A stretch of 64,000 bases of DNA from the human T2T-CHM13v2.0 reference genome, Homo sapiens. The position numbers and the translations under genes are program-made. Below, in pieces: positions 1-39,852 of the stretch (position 1 is the stretch's first letter; each line of letters opens with the position of its first letter). Below the pieces are notes generated by a model that was given only the letters and a program-made list of their open reading frames with translations, had not been told where the DNA came from and did no database searches. Location of the stretch: assembly GCF_009914755.1 (NCBI RefSeq), contig NC_060941.1. The stretch is one strand, 5' to 3'.

Positions 1-450
1 ATAGTGGAAACAACTCAAGTGTCAATCAACAGATGAATAAACAAAATGTATGACCTACGTGCAATGGAAAATTATTCAACTATAAAGGAATGAAATTCTG
101 ACAAATGCTTGAATATGGATAAACCCATAGTAAGTGAAAAAAGCCACTGTATTTTTGTACACAAAGTACAAATATTATATGATTTCACTTATATGAGGTA
201 CCTAGAATAGACAAATTCTTAGAGATGGGAAGTAGAACAGAGGTTACCAGGGCCTGAGGGAAGGGGCTAAACAGGAGTCATTGTTCCATCAGTACAGTTT
301 CTGACTGGGATGATTGAAAAGTTTTGGAAAGGGATACTGGTGATGGTTGTACAACATCATGAATGTACTCGATGGCACTAAATTGTACACTTAAAAATGC
401 TTAAAAGGTAAATTTTATGTCATGTGTATTTTACCACAATTTTAAAAATT
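1..450 (+). mobile_element. Old L1M (L1MB-like) 3' UTR
   Basis: Typical L1M 3' motifs: caactcaagtgtcaatcaacagatgaat; aaattgtacacttaaaaatg...attttaccacaat. Confidence 0.8.
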
Positions 451-643
451 GAAAAGAACACACAAATGAATACTATTTAGTAACATAAATAAATGAACTA
501 GTTTCTCACATATTAACCAGGATGAATCATAAACTTCTAGATGTTGAGTAAAAAATGCAAATACAGATAGATAACAAATATGATTTCATTTATATAAAGT
601 TCAAAAACAATATGTTCTTTGAGAAAAATATATATAACTTTAA

Positions 644-1852: not shown

Positions 1853-2262
1853 TGCTATGTTTTGAACATTTGTCCTCTCCAAAATGTTGAAATTTAATCT
1901 CTAATGTGGCAGCATTGAGAGGTGGGGGATTTTAAGAGGTGACAGGGTAACAAGAGTGCTGCCCTCATGAATGGATTTGTCCAGTCATGTATTAATGGCT
2001 TATCATGGGAGTGGGACTAGTGGCTTTATACAAAAAGGAATAGAGACTCGAGCTTGTATACTCAGCCTCCTTGCCCTGTGATACTCTGAGCCACCCTGGG
2101 ACTCAGCAGAGAGTTCCCACCAGCAAGAAGGCCCGCACCAGATGCAGCCTCTCAGTCTTGAACTTCTCAGCCTCTGTAACTGCAAGAAATAAATTCCTTT
2201 TAAAAAATAAATCACCCAGTTTCAGGTAGTCTGTTACAAGCAACAGAAAATGAACTAAGACA
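1853..2262 (+). mobile_element. MST (MaLR) solo LTR
   Basis: Begins TGCTATG, ends CTAAGACA, 5-bp TSD GTACC on both sides. Confidence 0.9.
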
Positions 2263-2536
2263 GTACCATTCATTCATACAGGCAACACTGGCAAAGGACC
2301 AAGACTGGAAGGAAAGATTAAAAGTTTGTTGCCTTTAAGATATCCAAATGGAAATGTTGATATGGCAGTTGGGTATATGGGCATAGTACTTAAGGAAGAA
2401 GTCAGAATTTAATTATATATTAGGAAAGCATGACAAAAGATAAAACTAAAAAAGAATGTATAGAGATGAGATTGCCTAGTGGGAGAGTACAGATTTAAAA
2501 GGGGGGACCAGCAAGAAAATCTTATTTCCTCTCCAT

Positions 2537-4577
<2,041 letters not shown>

Positions 4578-27034: not shown

Positions 27035-27440
27035 GAAACATTATTCACCTTTAAAGAGGAAACTCTGGCACATGCTACAACATAGATGATGAACTTTGAA
27101 GACATTATCTGCAACATGGACAAACCTTGAGGACATTACTAAGTAAAATAAGCCAGTCACAAAAACGACAAATATTTTATGATTCCACTTATATGAAGTA
27201 TTTATAGTAATCAGATTCATAGAAACAGAAAGCAGAATGGTAGTTACCAGGAGCTGGGGAGAGGGGGAGAATAGAGAGCTGTTGTTTAATGGGAACAGAG
27301 TTTCAGTTTTTCAAGAGGAGAAAGTCTTGAGATTGGTTGCACAACAACATATACATACTTAATAAGACTGAGCTGTATACTCAAAAATGGTTAAGATGGT
27401 AAATTTTATATATATTCTACCACAATTAAAAGTTTTTTAA
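27035..27440 (+). mobile_element. L1M 3' end
   Basis: taagtaaaataagccagtcacaaaa...aaaaatggttaagatggtaaatttt. Confidence 0.8.
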
Positions 27441-28225
27441 ATTTTAAGTTGAAGGAAAATATTACAGTGTAACAGAATCCAGCTGCACAACTACATTATT
27501 ATAATTCAGCGACATTATAGGTTAAATGGACTTTTGTGCAGTAGGCTGAGAACATAGAGCCTGTAATAACATTCTTATGAGAAAACGTATGCTGAATTTA
27601 CCAACTTCCCATATTTATCTGTGTCTCTAAAGAAAGCAACTTGAAAACGTGGAACATGTATTCTTCCTTCACTGCTGTTCATAGTCACATTTCTCAACAG
27701 GAACACTCTGGCATTTGGAAAGCACAATTCTTAGTTACATAGGAGTAGCATTCTAGGTTCCCAACTACCAAATGCCGTAGTTGCTCCCAAGTAATTGTGA
27801 GGACCAAAAATGTTCCCACCTATAAACCTGTGTATATAGCTTAATAAAGAGCTAGCATTGTGTTAGGCACACAGGTGATGTTAACTTAACCACTTTAGCA
27901 TTAACCACAGCTTAACATCACCTGTGTGCCTAACCACTTTAAAATATTTCATAAAAAGAAACCAGAAGGCATAATGAAAAATAACAATCTATACATTTCC
28001 ACAAAAATTAAAATAACATTTAGTAGCCATCGTTATAAAACATTAAAATCTTAAATCATAGGACTCATAAGAGTACTTTTAACTCATTTCAGATATTCAA
28101 ACATGCTGAACACTTGCTAAATACCAGCTATTAATCTAGGCACAGAGGAAGAACGTGGATGTAAAAGGAAGAATCAGGATACACTGTAGTCTAATGGAAA
28201 AGAGAAGCATAAGTAATTATACAAG

Positions 28226-31029: not shown

Positions 31030-32515
<1,486 letters not shown>

Positions 32516-32723
32516 TACCAGAACTAGGTACTACTATAATTTAAGTTACAGGATGAGAGGGATTGGTTGTTTTTCATTTTCCACAGTTCATACAATAAAA
32601 AAGGGACTTTCTGACACTGTAGGAACATAAGAAAACTTTAGCAATAGAAGATAATTTAATATGAATTAATTAAATATATTTATTTAATGATTTCAATATT
32701 CATTAATATAAAAGACTAATTTT

Positions 32724-33353: not shown

Positions 33354-33470
33354 CTATAAGAAATTACCATATTAAGTATAGAGGGGTTGGGAGGGAATTG
33401 GAAAAAGAAACTTCTCAAAAATACAATGAAACCCAACAAAACATGCATTGAAATTTTAGGTGAACAGAAT

Positions 33471-33886
33471 TGCTATAGTTTGATAGTCTGACTTCTCCAA
33501 ATCTGATATTGAAATTTCATCCCCAGTAATGGAAGTGGGGCATATCAGGAGGTTTGGGACCATGGGGGTAGATACCTCATGAATAGATTAACGCCCTCCC
33601 TAAGTAGAGAGGGGGTGAGTTAGTGCTCTGTTAGTTCCCACGAGAGCTGGTTGTTAGAAAGAGCCTAACACCTCCCTCCCTTCTCTCTCTCGCTTCTTCT
33701 CTTGCCATATGATCTGTACAAACCAGCTCCCCTTCACCTTTTGCCATCAGTGGAAGCAGGCTAAGGTCCTCAAAAGCAGATGCTGGAGCCATGCTTCGTA
33801 CAAGCTGCAGAACTGTGAACCAAATAAACCTCCTTTCTTTGTAAGTTACCCAGCCTCAGGTATTTATAGTGATACAAACAAAGACA
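33471..33886 (+). mobile_element. MST (MaLR) solo LTR
   Basis: TGCTATAGTTTGA...aataaacctcctttctttgtaagttacccagcctcaggtat. Confidence 0.85.
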
Positions 33887-35601
33887 ATTATTAACAGCAC
33901 AATGCTAACAATATATTTTAGATTGCCATATTAGCAAAATTCTCCTCAGAGTCAAAGACTCTTTAATAATAAGTTAGGTATTTAGAAGATTCAATCAGGG
34001 TATTATTTGGTGCCTTTCAGATGTAAGGAATTAAATAAAAATGTAGCAAATGGCTTCTCCAAAAGGCTTTAAAGAGTTGATATGTTGCCTTAAATCCATG
34101 AGTTATTTCCAGAAAGTAATTCTGATGCTGAGAATAATATGACTACATCACAAGCAAAACTAAATGACTTAAGGAAACAATACATGCTAAATAACAAAAT
34201 GTATGTTAACTGGTTCTTTGGTCTTTACATGGCTCATAAGTTTTAATATGGATGAAAGTGTGGACATTAAAACAAAATTATAAGAAAACAGAAGAGTATG
34301 TTCCCCACATTGTAAAAGAGAAAATTCTGAATACTGAAGCAATAAAAGATATTGGTGACAACTCTGATGTCTGACAATAAAATGTGTTCAATGAAAATAA
34401 AATGGGGAAATAGGATAAATAAGAAAGATACATTTTAATATTCAGATATATCATGAAACAATACAAATCTATAAGAGTAAAAATCAGCCTTCACTGAACA
34501 AAACATTACAGAATACAAATAAGTAGAAAGACTTAAAAAACAAACCAACAAAGAACAAACAAGAAAGACAACATGAACTTGGAAAAATATTCAGCCCTGC
34601 AATGAAATACAAATATCAAATTATTCTTTTTGAAAAATGAAGTCCCCTCAGCAACACCTTATATCAAAGCTTAATATCCTTCTCCAACACTGGCAGAACA
34701 CTGGCAATTTACTCTGATAAAATATAGAAAATATAAACTACTAAAGGTGAGGCGCTGTACTAAAAACAGAAGGGCTAAATGAAATCCTACATATTCAATT
34801 ATTAGAGTACTCCGAGCTCAATTCCAGTTAGGTTACCTACACATTGGCAGCTGGGTTGGGGGGGGTAGAAAAATAGAAAACTAAGCAATGGAAAAATAAA
34901 TAAAAAGTTAATTATGGTTCCTTAGGAAACATACATAAAGCTGTATAAAAATATAATCAAGTAAGCTACATGCATTACTATCATGGGCTATAATAATACA
35001 TACACGTGATGATATCCACGCTGAATATCAATATAACTATACTGGCAGAATAGAGAGTGAAGAGAGAGAAGAAAGAAGGGCAGAAAAGCAGGAAGCAAAG
35101 GAAGAAGAGAGAGCGCATGAGTGAGCGTGTGTGTGTGTGTGTGACAGAGAGAGAAGAGTGTGTGTGAGTGTGTGCGTGTCTAAAGGAGCTAAATCATCAT
35201 TATACTTAACAGAAAGTCAACAGACAACATCTAAAATTGAAAACTCCAAAGAAGCAGAACCCACGTTATTTTTTTAAATGTGGTTAAATATCAGAAGAAA
35301 CCACTACAAGAGATAAAAGTGCACTCCAAAGTGAGAATTGGGATTGAGGAGTGGGTCAGAGGAATGCTTTTCTCAACAGAACTGACTCTTTATATTCTAT
35401 AGGTATACTACTTTGGTAAAAATTCCTAAAAATATTGATAATCATAATGATGAATGTCTTAGCCAACTAGAATTAGGGCAAATTTCCTTAATCCAATAAA
35501 AATAACTATAAAATATATAATATAATAAAAATATAATATATATATTATTTAACAGCTCTAATTAATTTTTTAATTTAATTAACTGAATTGAATTGAATTA
35601 A

Positions 35602-36468
35602 AATTAACAGCTTTATTGAGCTATAATTCACATGCTTACAATTTACCTTTTTAAAGTGAGTTCTGTGGGTTATTTCTATATTATATATTTTATATATTAT
35701 ATATTTATATATAATATAGTATATATTATATATTTATATATTTTATATAAATATATTTTATATAATATATTTATATAAAATATATATTCATATATGTATT
35801 AATATATTAATATATAAATATATTTTATATATAATGTAAATATAAAAATATATATTTATATATATTTATATATAATATATTTATATTATATTTATATTTA
35901 TAAATTTATAAATAATTTTATAAAATTATAATTTTATTTATAAATAAATTTATATAAATTTATATAAATTTATAAATATAATTATATATAAATATATTGC
36001 ATGTTTATGTATTAATAAATATATTAATATATAATATATTATATACTATATAAAATATATAAAAATATATTATATACTATATAAAATATATAAAAATATA
36101 TTATATACTATATAAAATATATAAAAATATATTATATACTATATAAAATATATAAAAATATATTATATACTATATAAAATATATAAAAATATATTATATA
36201 CTATATAAAATATATAAAAATATATTATATACTATATAAAATATATAAAAATATATAAAACATTATATATTAATATATTATATATAGTTATATACTATAT
36301 ATAGTATATATTTATATAAAATATATTTATATAAAATATTTATATAAAATATATAATATATATACTATATATTATATATAAATATATAATATAAAAATAA
36401 CCCACAGAACTCACTTTAAAAAGGTAAATTTTAAGCATGTGAATTATAGCTCAATAGAGCTGTTAATT
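35602..36468. repeat. AT-rich quasi-palindrome with 89-bp inverted arms
   Basis: 35602-35690 is the reverse complement of 36380-36468 with 3 mismatches; the spacer is almost all A/T. Confidence 0.95.
36033..36256. repeat. 31-bp AT-rich minisatellite, about 7 perfect copies
   Basis: Unit CTATATAAAATATATAAAAATATATTATATA; C at 36046, 36077, 36108, 36139, 36170, 36201, 36232. Confidence 0.95.
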
Positions 36469-36560
36469 AAAAAAGAATTTTTAATCACAGCAAACATCTC
36501 AATAAAGGGTGCAATACTAGTAATTCCTCCTTTAAGCAACAAAACCAAGATGTCTTTTTC

Positions 36561-36883
<323 letters not shown>

Positions 36884-37600
36884 TCATTGCCTGTGATAAA
36901 CAACGCACTGGAAGTCTGAGACAGCATAGTAAGAAATAAAAACATGAAGAAATAGAAAGAAATGAGAAAGAAAGAAACCGGTCATTATTCAGACAATATG
37001 GTTATCTACATGGAAAATTTAAGATAATCTGTGGGCAAACCTGTAAAATAATTCAACAAGGTGGTTAATAAGACAATTATAAGATAAATATATAAAAATC
37101 AAACACCAGTTTTATATAGCAATAACAATTAAAAATGTAATTTTAAAAATATATCATTTGTAATGGAAACAGAAACTTTAAGCTACCCATGAATAAATCT
37201 AACCAAAGCCATCTAATCTTTTAAAAATAAAATTATAAAATTTTATTGAAAGATAGGAAAAAATAATGAAGAACTATATCTTGTCATGAATGGGAAAACT
37301 TCATAATGTAAATGCATGAATTCTTTCCAAATTAATCTATAAATACAGTGCAATTACAATAAAAATTCTAACAGAACTTTTCCTAGAGATTATAAGCTAA
37401 TTCTAAAATTCAAATGGCAGAGTAAAACAAAGGACAGCTGATACAATTCCAAAGGAAAATAATAAAGTGAGGGATATGCCCTACTATATATAAGCACTTT
37501 TCTTAAATCATTAATTAACAAATGTGACAAATTAGAGAAACAGAATGGTGGAACACAATCAAGTCCAGATATAAATTCACACATATATGAAAATTAGAGG

Positions 37601-38213
37601 GGCTGGGTGTAGTGGTTCACTCTTGTAATCCCAGTGCTTCAGGAGGCCGAGGTGGGAGGATCGCCTGAGGCCAGGAGTTCAAGACCAGCCTAGGCAACAT
37701 AGTGAGACCCTGTCTCTACAAAACATAAAAAAAATTAAGCCAGGCACGGGTGGCTCATGCTTGTAATCCTAGCACTTTGAAAGACCGAGGCGGGTGGATC
37801 ACTTGAGCTCAGGAGCTGGAGACCAGCCTGGGCAACATGACAAAAGCCCGTCTCTACAAAAAAATACAAAAAATGAGCCAGGTGTGGTGGCATGCTTGTG
37901 GTCCCAGGTACTTGGGGGCGCTGAGGCACAAGAATTGCCTGAACCTGGGAGGCGGAGGTTGCAGTGGGCTGAGATCACACCACTGCACTCCAGCCTGGTT
38001 AACAGAGTGAGATTCTGTCTCAAAATAAATAAAAAAATAAGTAATTAGCCAGGTGTGGTAATGCATGCCTGTAGTCCCAGCTACTGAGCAGGCTATGGCA
38101 GGAGGATCCCTTAAGACCAGAAATCCAAGGTTACAGTGAGCTATGAATGCACCATTGCACTTCATTCCGGGCAACACAGCAAGACTCTGTCTCTTAAAAA
38201 CAAAAAAAAAAAG
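37601..38213 (+). mobile_element. Nested Alus: an Alu inserted in the A-rich linker of an AluJ
   Basis: Left arm 37601-37735, full Alu about 37739-38040, host right arm resumes at attagccaggtgtgg (about 38044). Confidence 0.88.

Positions 38214-39189: not shown

Positions 39190-39852
<663 letters not shown>

What the first reader, a model, noticed from the sequence alone, without database searches (positions are those of the whole stretch)
35540..36485. PATRR-like AT-rich quasi-palindrome in BRIP1 intron 10
Seen: 89-bp arms (35602-35690 and 36380-36468) are reverse complements at 86/89 positions. They enclose about 690 bp of nearly pure A/T containing smaller palindromes, e.g. the perfect 22-mer TATATACTATATATAGTATATA at 36289-36310. 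The arm resembles the 3' terminus of an old L1M (aattatagctcaata.agctgtt), yet the two copies differ by only about 3%, so the inverted duplication is much younger than the L1. A third short copy (taacagctcta, 35550-35560) matches the right-arm allele, consistent with template switching. Established: palindromic AT-rich repeats (11q23, 22q11, NF1 17q11) extrude cruciforms and seed translocations, and FANCJ helps replication through secondary structures. Inference: a candidate fragile, polymorphic cruciform element inside a genome-stability gene. I do not recognise it as a catalogued PATRR.
Basis: partly seen in the sequence, partly recalled or inferred. Interest (0 to 1): 0.8.

Follow-up and report, generated by a model that had tools for sequence, protein, structure and literature searches.

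The report
L1-tail inverted repeat around TA array
A BRIP1 intron holds two near-identical, oppositely oriented 89-base copies of the end of an old L1 retroposon around a 689-base almost pure A/T tandem repeat; the structure is real and locally unusual, but it is a widely spaced inverted repeat and not a true translocation-type AT-rich palindrome.

Summary
Arms 35602-35690 and 36380-36468 are reverse complements at 86 of 89 positions. They enclose 689 nt that are 97.1% A+T.

The arms are the 3' terminus of a dispersed retroposon, with a polyadenylation signal and an A-rich tail. The name L1M is recalled. Twenty-eight genomic relatives match the right arm at no more than 71 of 89 positions. The arms are therefore a local inverted duplication, not two insertions.

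The spacer is an ordinary degenerate 31/62-nt AT-rich minisatellite, with 7.2 perfect 31-nt copies at 36033-36256. As it stands it is no more palindromic than direct, reversed or complemented controls. The 22-mer palindrome is at chance level.

The defining PATRR feature, a near-perfect palindrome without spacer (PMC4940405), is not met.

None of 20 similar TA arrays elsewhere in the genome has such flanking arms, so the architecture is uncommon.

Most likely this is a neutral product of replication template switching or fold-back. It folds strongly when single-stranded, as DNA or as pre-mRNA. Fragility, polymorphism and age could not be tested here.

Interest is low to moderate.

The parts
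35549..35560 (-). Third, 12-nt partial copy of the retroposon end (TTAACAGCTCTA on +). It has the same orientation as the left arm and carries the right-arm allele at the poly(A)-signal position.
   Evidence: exact 12-mer found only here and, as reverse complement, at 36455-36466. 3 sites at up to 1 mismatch against 0.56 expected.
35561..35601 (.). 41-nt A/T-rich filler with (GAATT)x3 between the third copy and the left arm. It has no counterpart beyond the right arm.
   Evidence: outside 35602/36468 the two sides diverge.
35602..35690 (-). Left arm: reverse-complement copy of the last ~85 nt of the retroposon plus the first 4 nt of its tail. It keeps an intact AATAAA signal (TTTATT at 35612-35617 on +).
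   Evidence: 86/89 to the right arm; family match; A at the signal position in 21 of 27 relatives.
35691..36379 (.). Spacer: 689 nt, 97.1% A+T. It is a degenerate tandem array of period 31/62 nt. The longest pure (TA)n run is only 9 nt.
35944..35973 (.). Longest perfect palindrome in the spacer (30 nt), within a cluster of 16-22-nt perfect palindromes at 35895-35974.
   Evidence: This is chance-level for the composition: the longest palindrome averaged 22.8 nt (maximum 50) in 300 resamples.
36033..36256 (+). Young, perfectly periodic 31-nt minisatellite block of 7.2 copies. It lies only in the right half and makes the spacer asymmetric.
   Evidence: 193 consecutive period-31 matches; three 89-93-nt stretches 100% identical.
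36289..36310 (.).
   Evidence: own reverse complement; 185 of 300 resamples reach 22 nt or more.
36380..36468 (+). Right arm: sense-strand 3' terminus of the retroposon. Its poly(A) signal is mutated to AATAGA (36453-36458, G at 36457).
36465..36475 (+). A-rich tail remnant (AATTAAAAAAG) after ...GCTGTT. Only its first 4 nt are shared with the left arm.
   Evidence: relatives carry similar A-rich runs at the same point, followed by unrelated DNA.

Best explanation
This is a locus-specific composite with no demonstrated function.

An old, severely shortened L1-type 3' end lay next to, or was invaded by, an A/T-rich tandem array. That L1 end is the right arm: sense on +, with poly(A) signal and tail.

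A replication error at this self-complementary array then copied the last ~89 nt of the L1 end in reverse orientation onto the other side of the array. The error was either fold-back priming of the nascent strand or a short-range inter-strand template switch. The result was the left arm, probably with a stuttered 12-nt re-copy at 35549-35560.

Afterwards the A/T array kept turning over by slippage and unequal exchange. The latest step was the expansion of 7.2 perfect 31-nt units in the right half. The arms are now 689 nt apart and the interior is no longer a recognisable palindrome.

Today the element behaves as a widely spaced inverted repeat. In duplex DNA the arms cannot nucleate a cruciform. 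Only short local TA palindromes could. Whenever the whole ~0.9 kb is single-stranded (long resection tracts, uncoupled forks, or the BRIP1 pre-mRNA), the arms close a very stable hairpin.

Shown: the anatomy, the family origin of the arms, the arm identity, the lack of interior symmetry, and the folding energies.
Inferred: the order of events, the mechanism, and neutrality.
For: - Arms match at 86/89.
- The arm belongs to a dispersed family: 40 scored matches out of 136 and out of 72 candidates.
- In the 28 aligned relatives the shared sequence stops at ...GCTGTT and is followed by an A-rich run and then unrelated DNA. L029 and L038 are too diverged there to judge. Homology among relatives runs only to the inner side.
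- Arm-to-arm 86/89, against a best relative of 71/89, median 64, minimum 47 (n=28).
- No further retroposon body in 33400-38000. Only Alu and arm hits appear.
- The outer flanks are neither complementary nor direct repeats, so there are no target-site duplications.
- The spacer is a period-31/62 array with 7.2 perfect copies on one side only.
- Interior reverse-complement score 159-162, against direct 152-156, reversed 158-159 and complemented 166-169.
- After collapsing the young array the reverse-complement score does exceed the controls: 133 against 106, 116 and 100, with 0 of 300 block shuffles reaching it. This is a weak hint of a former palindrome.
- ssDNA fold of 35580-36490: -206.1 kcal/mol, z -21.4, 0 of 20 shuffles as good, arms paired in both MFE and centroid. 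The spacer alone gives -121.1, so the arms add about -85 kcal/mol.
- Literature, passages read. Short-range template switches in apes create nearby inverted repeats and are enriched at AT-rich sequence (PMC7954356). For Alu inverted repeats in duplex DNA in yeast, raising the spacer from 12 to 100 bp cuts recombination 300-fold, and a 1.5-kb spacer gives 31-fold fewer rearrangements. In long ssDNA, spacers up to 30 kb do not matter (PMC10164571).
Against: - No outgroup or second human assembly could be consulted. Neither the direction (which arm is the copy), nor the date, nor the single-event origin is shown.
- If the interior had been copied together with the arms it should mirror as well as they do. 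Even after collapsing the array, only 2 of 12 columns that hold a G/C marker are mirrored. The fold-back version therefore needs very fast turnover of the array. Otherwise the inter-strand version (arm copied alone) is the right one.
- 0 of 20 comparable TA arrays carry such arms. TA arrays clearly do not generate them routinely, and the causal link to the array is an inference.
- High arm identity could be maintained by arm-to-arm gene conversion, which would make the structure older than it looks.
- 'Neutral and mostly inert in duplex DNA' rests on yeast Alu-repeat data, not on this sequence. A 97% A+T spacer melts easily, and C-type extrusion (recalled concept) might tolerate it better.
Confidence: 0.7

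Rival explanations
1. It is an active PATRR-type element. The arms and the A/T interior extrude a cruciform in vivo, making this BRIP1 intron a hotspot for double-strand breaks, deletions or translocations.
For: - The whole element 35602-36468 is 867 bp and 92.7% A+T, within the PATRR size and composition range given in PMC4940405.
- The less A/T-rich ends (75-76% A+T) flank an A/T-rich centre.
- The single-strand fold is very stable.
- A weak residual symmetry appears once the young 31-mer array is collapsed, so alleles lacking that expansion might be more symmetric.
Against: - The defining feature, a nearly perfect palindrome without spacer (PMC4940405), is not met. The 689-nt interior is no more self-complementary than the direct, reversed or complemented controls.
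- Asymmetric PATRR alleles are reported to translocate less than long symmetric ones (PMC4940405 passage).
- Spacers of 100 bp and more strongly suppress inverted-repeat fragility in duplex DNA (PMC10164571).
- The library searches that paired BRIP1 with inverted repeat, AT-rich, palindrome, breakpoint or FRA17B returned no paper describing such an element or breakpoint in a BRIP1 intron.
Confidence: 0.1
2. Two independent insertions of the same L1 subfamily landed head-to-head in an A/T-rich target. They were later homogenised by gene conversion.
For: - The family is abundant.
- Both arms are followed outward by A/T-rich sequence that could each be a decayed tail. Some relatives carry tails of the AATTTTAAAAG type, like the left arm's outer flank.
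Against: - Both copies would have to be cut at the same inner point and share 86/89 positions, when 28 relatives share at most 71/89 with the arm.
- The arms share the first 4 tail bases and at least 2 states that differ from the relatives' majority.
- Conversion tracts would have to cover exactly the whole arms.
Confidence: 0.07
3. The element matters as RNA. In the BRIP1 pre-mRNA (minus strand) the arms form a ~100-bp double-stranded stem. That stem could be an ADAR editing substrate, or affect intron processing or dsRNA sensing.
For: RNA fold of the transcribed strand: -309.3 kcal/mol, z -23.9, 0 of 20 shuffles as good, arms paired in both MFE and centroid. The element lies inside an intron of the annotated transcript (hub table).
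Against: - No match to any Rfam family within the element.
- Both arms sit in the same intron, so no exon is bracketed.
- No editing, expression or conservation data could be consulted.
- Inverted Alu pairs with longer arms lie a few hundred bases away, so such stems are commonplace in introns.
Confidence: 0.08
4. Assembly artefact: the inverted arm was created by mis-assembly or by chimeric reads in a low-complexity region.
For: A/T-rich arrays are error-prone for length calling. No independent assembly could be inspected here.
Against: The arms differ at 3 positions and have different outer flanks, which is not the pattern of a fold-back chimera. The element is under 1 kb, far shorter than the reads used for a telomere-to-telomere assembly (established knowledge, not tested).
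Confidence: 0.02

Closest known systems
Palindromic AT-rich repeats (PATRR11, PATRR22, PATRR17, PATRR8)
   Same: Several hundred bp long, more than 90% A+T overall, less A/T-rich ends around an A/T-rich centre, intronic or intergenic, and strong predicted hairpin.
   Different: PATRRs are nearly perfect palindromes without spacer and break at their centre (PMC4940405). Here only the outer 89 nt on each side are complementary. The 689-nt interior is a tandem array, not a palindrome. No translocation or breakpoint is known.
Widely spaced inverted repeats (the Alu-IR model of Lobachev and colleagues)
   Same: Two diverged copies of a retroposon in inverted orientation separated by hundreds of bp. 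The 96.6% identity is well above the 75% limit reported for instability. Such repeats are expected to interact mainly when the region is single-stranded (PMC10164571).
   Different: The arms are 89 nt rather than ~300 nt. They arose by local duplication rather than by two insertions. The spacer is itself structure-prone A/T repeat.
AT-rich minisatellites of rare fragile sites (FRA16B, FRA10B)
   Same: The spacer contains a tandem array of a ~31-nt, almost pure A/T unit. Its 7.2 perfect copies compare with the 7-12 copies of the 33-bp unit on normal FRA16B chromosomes (PMC2875025).
   Different: No expansion: fragile alleles carry up to 2000 copies. The unit sequence is different. Similar arrays are common: a 93-nt probe gave 166 matches, and I count 38 other places among the rows listed.
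Short-range template-switch mutations (four-point model)
   Same: A reverse-complement copy of nearby sequence in an AT-rich context, creating an inverted repeat. A second short copy suggests serial switching (PMC7954356).
   Different: The copied fragment (89 nt) and its present distance from the template (689 nt) appear to me to be at the upper end of the 'tens to hundreds of nucleotides' described. No ancestral state is available to confirm the event.
Expanded (TA)n repeats that break without WRN in mismatch-repair-deficient cancers
   Same: A/T-only sequence able to form cruciforms (abstracts listed).
   Different: Those sites are described as expanded (TA)n repeats in the abstract starts listed. 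That they are long and uninterrupted is my recollection. Here the longest pure TA run is 9 nt.

Membership tests
PATRR | Several hundred base pairs long | tested here: met
   35602-36468 is 867 bp. Criterion from PMC4940405.
PATRR | More than 90% A+T | tested here: met
   804 of 867 = 92.7% overall. Spacer 97.1%, arms 75-76%.
PATRR | Nearly perfect palindrome without spacer region | tested here: not met
   Only the 89-nt ends are complementary. Interior reverse-complement score 159-162, against direct 152-156, reversed 158-159 and complemented 166-169. After collapsing the 31-mer array there is a weak excess (133 against at most 116), but only 2 of 12 G/C marker columns are mirrored.
PATRR | Found at translocation breakpoints, with breakage at the palindrome centre | not testable with these tools
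   No breakpoint data available. The searches found no report for this intron.
PATRR | Size polymorphism in the population | not testable with these tools
   Only one human assembly is held.
L1 (LINE-1) 3' end, old mammalian subfamily | Dispersed copies ending at a common point with a poly(A) signal and an A-rich tail | tested here: met
   40 scored matches per search. 26 of the 28 aligned relatives (all but L029 and L038) stop at ...AATAAAGCTGTT plus an A-rich run, followed by unrelated DNA.
L1 (LINE-1) 3' end, old mammalian subfamily | Match to a named Dfam/Repbase consensus (L1M...) | not testable with these tools
   No repeat library is available, and the subfamily name is recalled. NCBI's mask covers only 35668-36403, not the arms (hub table).
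DNA transposon / MITE with terminal inverted repeats | Terminal inverted repeats bounded by a target-site duplication | tested here: not met
   The outer flanks (...GAATTGAATTAA on the left, AAAAAAGAATT... on the right) are not direct repeats. The arms are retroposon 3' ends.
FRA16B/FRA10B-type AT-rich minisatellite | Tandem array of a ~30-40-nt A/T-rich unit | tested here: met
   Period 31/62 over 35671-36393. 7.2 perfect 31-nt copies at 36033-36256.
FRA16B/FRA10B-type AT-rich minisatellite | Expansion to hundreds or thousands of copies with cytogenetic fragility | tested here: not met
   Not expanded in this assembly. Fragility itself is not testable here.
Short-range template-switch mutation | Reverse-complement copy of nearby sequence | tested here: met
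   86/89 between the arms, against at most 71/89 to 28 relatives.
Short-range template-switch mutation | Ancestral sequence lacking the copy | not testable with these tools
   No primate genomes are held.
Known RNA families (Rfam 15) | Score at or above the gathering threshold | tested here: not met
   One search gave 4 sub-threshold matches, none of them within the arms or spacer (35602-36468). They lie in the adjacent Alu and flank.

The most novel reading that the evidence does not exclude
The element is a decayed or recurrently re-forming PATRR. It began as a spacer-less AT-rich palindrome made by fold-back replication (the weak mirror signal would be its trace). In the human population, alleles without the one-sided 31-mer expansion or with central deletions would be short and symmetric enough to extrude cruciforms. 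That would make this BRIP1 intron a polymorphic, allele-dependent hotspot for breaks and intragenic rearrangements, most of all when WRN or FANCJ itself is limiting.
Probability: 0.07. Interest if true: 0.6.

Novelty: new member of a known kind. Interest (0 to 1): 0.27.

Why it matters
If the arms pair in vivo, the element could stall forks or seed deletions inside a cancer-predisposition gene. It would also be a natural example of how AT-rich palindromes are born and then disarmed by asymmetric repeat expansion.

On present evidence it is one more structure-prone intronic repeat. It is worth a look in pangenome and break-mapping data, but it is not a catalogued or demonstrable fragile site. 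Its practical value is as a flagged locus for structural-variant callers and for long-read allele surveys in BRIP1.

Tried and rejected
- Interior palindrome. Global alignment of the left half against the reverse complement of the right half beat mononucleotide shuffles (159 against 110.8 +/- 6.3). It did not beat direct, reversed or complemented controls (repeated over all split points). I rejected it as a palindrome. Only after collapsing the young 31-mer array did a modest excess appear, which I rate as inconclusive.
- Dating the L1 against the duplication by majority states. The arms differ from the relatives' majority at only 2 of 68 informative columns. The relatives were chosen for likeness to the arm, so the majority is biased. 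I dropped this as an age measure and used whole-arm identities instead.
- A first attempt at whole-arm identities (part a) used a wrong gap setting and gave meaningless fractions. It was redone.
- MITE/transposon reading: no target-site duplication.
- Rfam: nothing in the element.
- Survey of similar TA arrays. 38 places were picked. 20 were fetched.
- Earlier findings of the scan were not open.
- The NF1 PATRR evolution paper (PMC2818517) is not held.
- Confirming 'intron 10' from papers gave nothing usable.
- FRA17B with BRIP1: none of the 10 listed papers holds both terms, and papers with more terms are listed first.
- No primate, GRCh38 or pangenome sequence, no repeat library, and no break-mapping, structural-variant or RNA-editing data were available.
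Full report
**1. The observation**

Window 35400-36700 was read directly.
- The arms 35602-35690 and 36380-36468 are reverse complements at 86 of 89 positions. The mismatches are at 35613, 35639 and 35676.
- The repeat finder reports the pair as 100 nt at 92% with 689 nt between. Five of its eight mismatches fall in the outermost 11 nt, so the true edge is at 35602/36468.
- The spacer 35691-36379 has A 351, T 318, C 12, G 8.
- The 22-mer at 36289-36310 is a perfect palindrome, and TAACAGCTCTA is at 35550-35560.
- By the genome search the window maps to contig 17 at 62,620,001-62,684,000 of the held assembly.

**2. More than chance?**

The arms: yes.
- In the whole window, 29 inverted pairs of 60 nt or more lie within 3 kb. 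Of the 25 shown, this pair has the highest complementarity: 92%, against 70-85% for the others, which are Alu pairs or internal TA matches.

The small palindromes: no.
- 185 of 300 first-order Markov resamples of the spacer contain a perfect palindrome of 22 nt or more (mean longest 22.8, maximum 50).
- The real spacer even holds a 30-mer at 35944-35973.

The third copy: yes.
- The 12-mer TTAACAGCTCTA occurs at 35549 and, as reverse complement, at 36455. With one mismatch it also occurs at 35604.
- That is 3 sites against 0.56 expected.

**3. What the arms are**

- A search of the window's own genome with the left arm gave 40 scored matches out of 136 candidates. Outside this locus these were 81-93% identical over about 55-70 nt.
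- The right arm gave 40 scored matches out of 72 candidates, at 77-93% identity.
- Six relatives share homology with each other only on the side that corresponds to the inner side of the arm.
- In the alignment of 28 relatives (L011-L038) the common sequence ends at ...AATAAAGCTGTT. It is followed by an A-rich run and then unrelated DNA. L029 and L038 are too diverged at that point to judge.

This is the signature of a retroposon 3' terminus with polyadenylation signal and tail. Three weaker copies of a related 3' region lie elsewhere in the window.

The right arm is therefore the sense copy. Its tail remnant AATTAAAAAAG lies at 36465-36475. The left arm is its reverse complement.
- The left arm keeps AATAAA.
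- The right arm and the 12-nt third copy have AATAGA.
- 21 of 27 relatives have A at that position.

**4. Duplication, not two insertions**

- Over the 89 nt of the right arm, the left arm matches 86 positions.
- The 28 relatives match 71 at best, with median 64 and minimum 47.
- Both arms stop at the same inner point and share the first four tail bases. Beyond that the outer flanks differ, and they are not direct repeats. There is thus no target-site duplication and no transposon-like insertion of the whole unit.
- Upstream parts of the relatives find nothing in 33400-38000 except Alu elements and the arms themselves. Only about 85 nt of the retroposon are present here.

An attempt to compare ages through majority states was abandoned, because the relatives were selected for likeness to the arm.

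Three differences in 89 nt give a point age of 14-34 Myr for rates of 1.2e-9 to 0.5e-9 per site per year. The Poisson limits run from 3 to 99 Myr. Arm-to-arm gene conversion would make the true age older.

**5. The spacer**

- Tandem Repeats Finder describes 35671-36393 as period 31 (23.8 copies, 74% matches) or period 62 (11.2 copies, 75%).
- A block of 7.2 perfectly periodic 31-nt units lies at 36033-36256, entirely in the right half. Three stretches of 89-93 nt within it are 100% identical.
- The longest pure (TA)n run is 9 nt.
- Arrays of this kind are common. The 93-nt probe gave 166 matches, with 40 of 98 candidates scored. I count 38 other places among the rows listed, at 73-90% identity.

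**6. Is the interior a palindrome?**

With the spacer as it stands:
- The left half against the reverse complement of the right half scores 159-162.
- The controls that keep the low-complexity structure score the same: direct 152-156, reversed 158-159, complemented 166-169.
- So the interior as it stands is not a palindrome.

With the young array collapsed to one unit:
- The reverse-complement score is 133, with G/C matches weighted. The controls give 106, 116 and 100. None of 300 block shuffles reaches it (mean 109.4, sd 6.5, maximum 129).
- However, only 2 of the 12 columns that hold a G or C are mirrored.

I read this as a weak, inconclusive trace of former symmetry.

**7. How unusual is the architecture?**

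- From I picked 38 other places holding similar TA arrays and fetched 20.
- The same script finds the arms here with a score of 86. The direct control scores 17 and the shuffle maximum is 12.
- In the 20 other loci the best flanking inverted match scores 9-23. L060 reaches 41, but its direct control is 78.
- So 0 of 20 have comparable non-low-complexity arms.

**8. Structure potential**

| Molecule | Region | Energy (kcal/mol) | Shuffles | z | Arms |
|---|---|---|---|---|---|
| ssDNA | 35580-36490 | -206.1 | -102.5 +/- 4.8, 0 of 20 as good | -21.4 | paired in MFE and centroid |
| ssDNA | spacer alone | -121.1 | - | -8.4 | not applicable |
| RNA, transcribed minus strand | 35580-36490 | -309.3 | - | -23.9 | paired |

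The arms contribute about -85 kcal/mol to the DNA fold. Rfam has no family matching within the arms or spacer.

**9. Comparison with what is known**

PATRRs (passages read in PMC4940405):
- They are several hundred bp, more than 90% AT, nearly perfect palindromes without spacer, and they break at the centre.
- Long symmetric alleles translocate more often than asymmetric ones.
- The element meets the size criterion (867 bp) and the composition criterion (92.7% A+T). It fails the palindrome criterion.

Spaced inverted Alu repeats in yeast (PMC10164571, passages):
- Increasing the spacer from 12 to 100 bp lowers recombination 300-fold.
- A 1.5-kb spacer lowers rearrangements 31-fold in wild type.
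- In long single-stranded DNA, spacers up to 30 kb and identities down to 75% remain potent.

FRA16B (PMC2875025, passages):
- Normal chromosomes carry 7-12 copies of a 33-bp AT-rich unit.
- Fragile ones carry up to 2000.

Short-range template switches in great apes (PMC7954356, passages):
- They create nearby inverted repeats.
- They are enriched in AT-rich and poly(dA:dT) sequence.

Other literature:
- FANCJ is listed as acting on hairpins, triplexes and G4 (PMC12708500, passages). That says nothing about this locus.
- The palindrome catalogue PMC7680136 mentions BRIP1 only for an intronic SNP that creates a palindrome (passages).
- The searches, which paired BRIP1 with these terms, found no description of this element. 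The PATRR searches were scanned by title and abstract start only. Supplements were not opened.

**10. Verdict**

The element is a real, locally rare, retroposon-derived inverted duplication bracketing an ordinary AT-rich minisatellite.
- It most likely arose by a replication template switch or fold-back.
- It has since been made asymmetric by repeat turnover.
- It works like a widely spaced inverted repeat, not like a PATRR.
- Fragility, polymorphism, evolutionary age and any RNA-level effect remain untested.

Noticed in passing
window 36555-36884: An antisense Alu (T-rich tract 36555-36589, then the Alu body) lies about 90 nt right of the element. It forms long inverted pairs with other Alus at 37.6-41.2 kb, for example 36607-36806 with 39256-39455 (200 nt, 82%). 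The same intron therefore holds larger, though more diverged, inverted repeats.
   Followed up: partly
window 35944-35973: A 30-nt perfect palindrome inside a cluster of 16-22-nt perfect palindromes (35895-35974), built from an (AAATTTATAT)-like unit.
   Followed up: yes
window 35048-35182: GA- and GT-rich microsatellite patches (AGAGAGAGA, (GT)8.5, (GT)11 at 80%) about 400 nt left of the element.
   Followed up: no
L047 (G000 contig 15: 77865400-77870900), core 1911-3407: A 1.5-kb, 95% A+T array whose units are 90% identical to the 31-mer block here and are spaced 56 nt apart. It is the closest relative of the spacer found in the genome and has no flanking inverted arms.
   Followed up: partly
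window 330-480, 27330-27480, 32410-32540 (minus strand): Three other old retroposon fragments share a related 3'-region motif with the arms. The best is 403-440 (81.6% over 38 nt, E 1.9e-4). They belong to a more distant branch than the 28 genomic relatives.
   Followed up: partly
window 36610-36669: A sub-threshold Rfam match to mir-3135 (31.4 bits against a gathering score of 80, E 0.0017) lies inside the neighbouring Alu. It is probably just Alu sequence.
   Followed up: no
L012 (G000 contig 12: 19636217-19639280): This relative carries a second, weaker copy of the same retroposon end about 370 nt from the first. Its relative orientation was not worked out.
   Followed up: no
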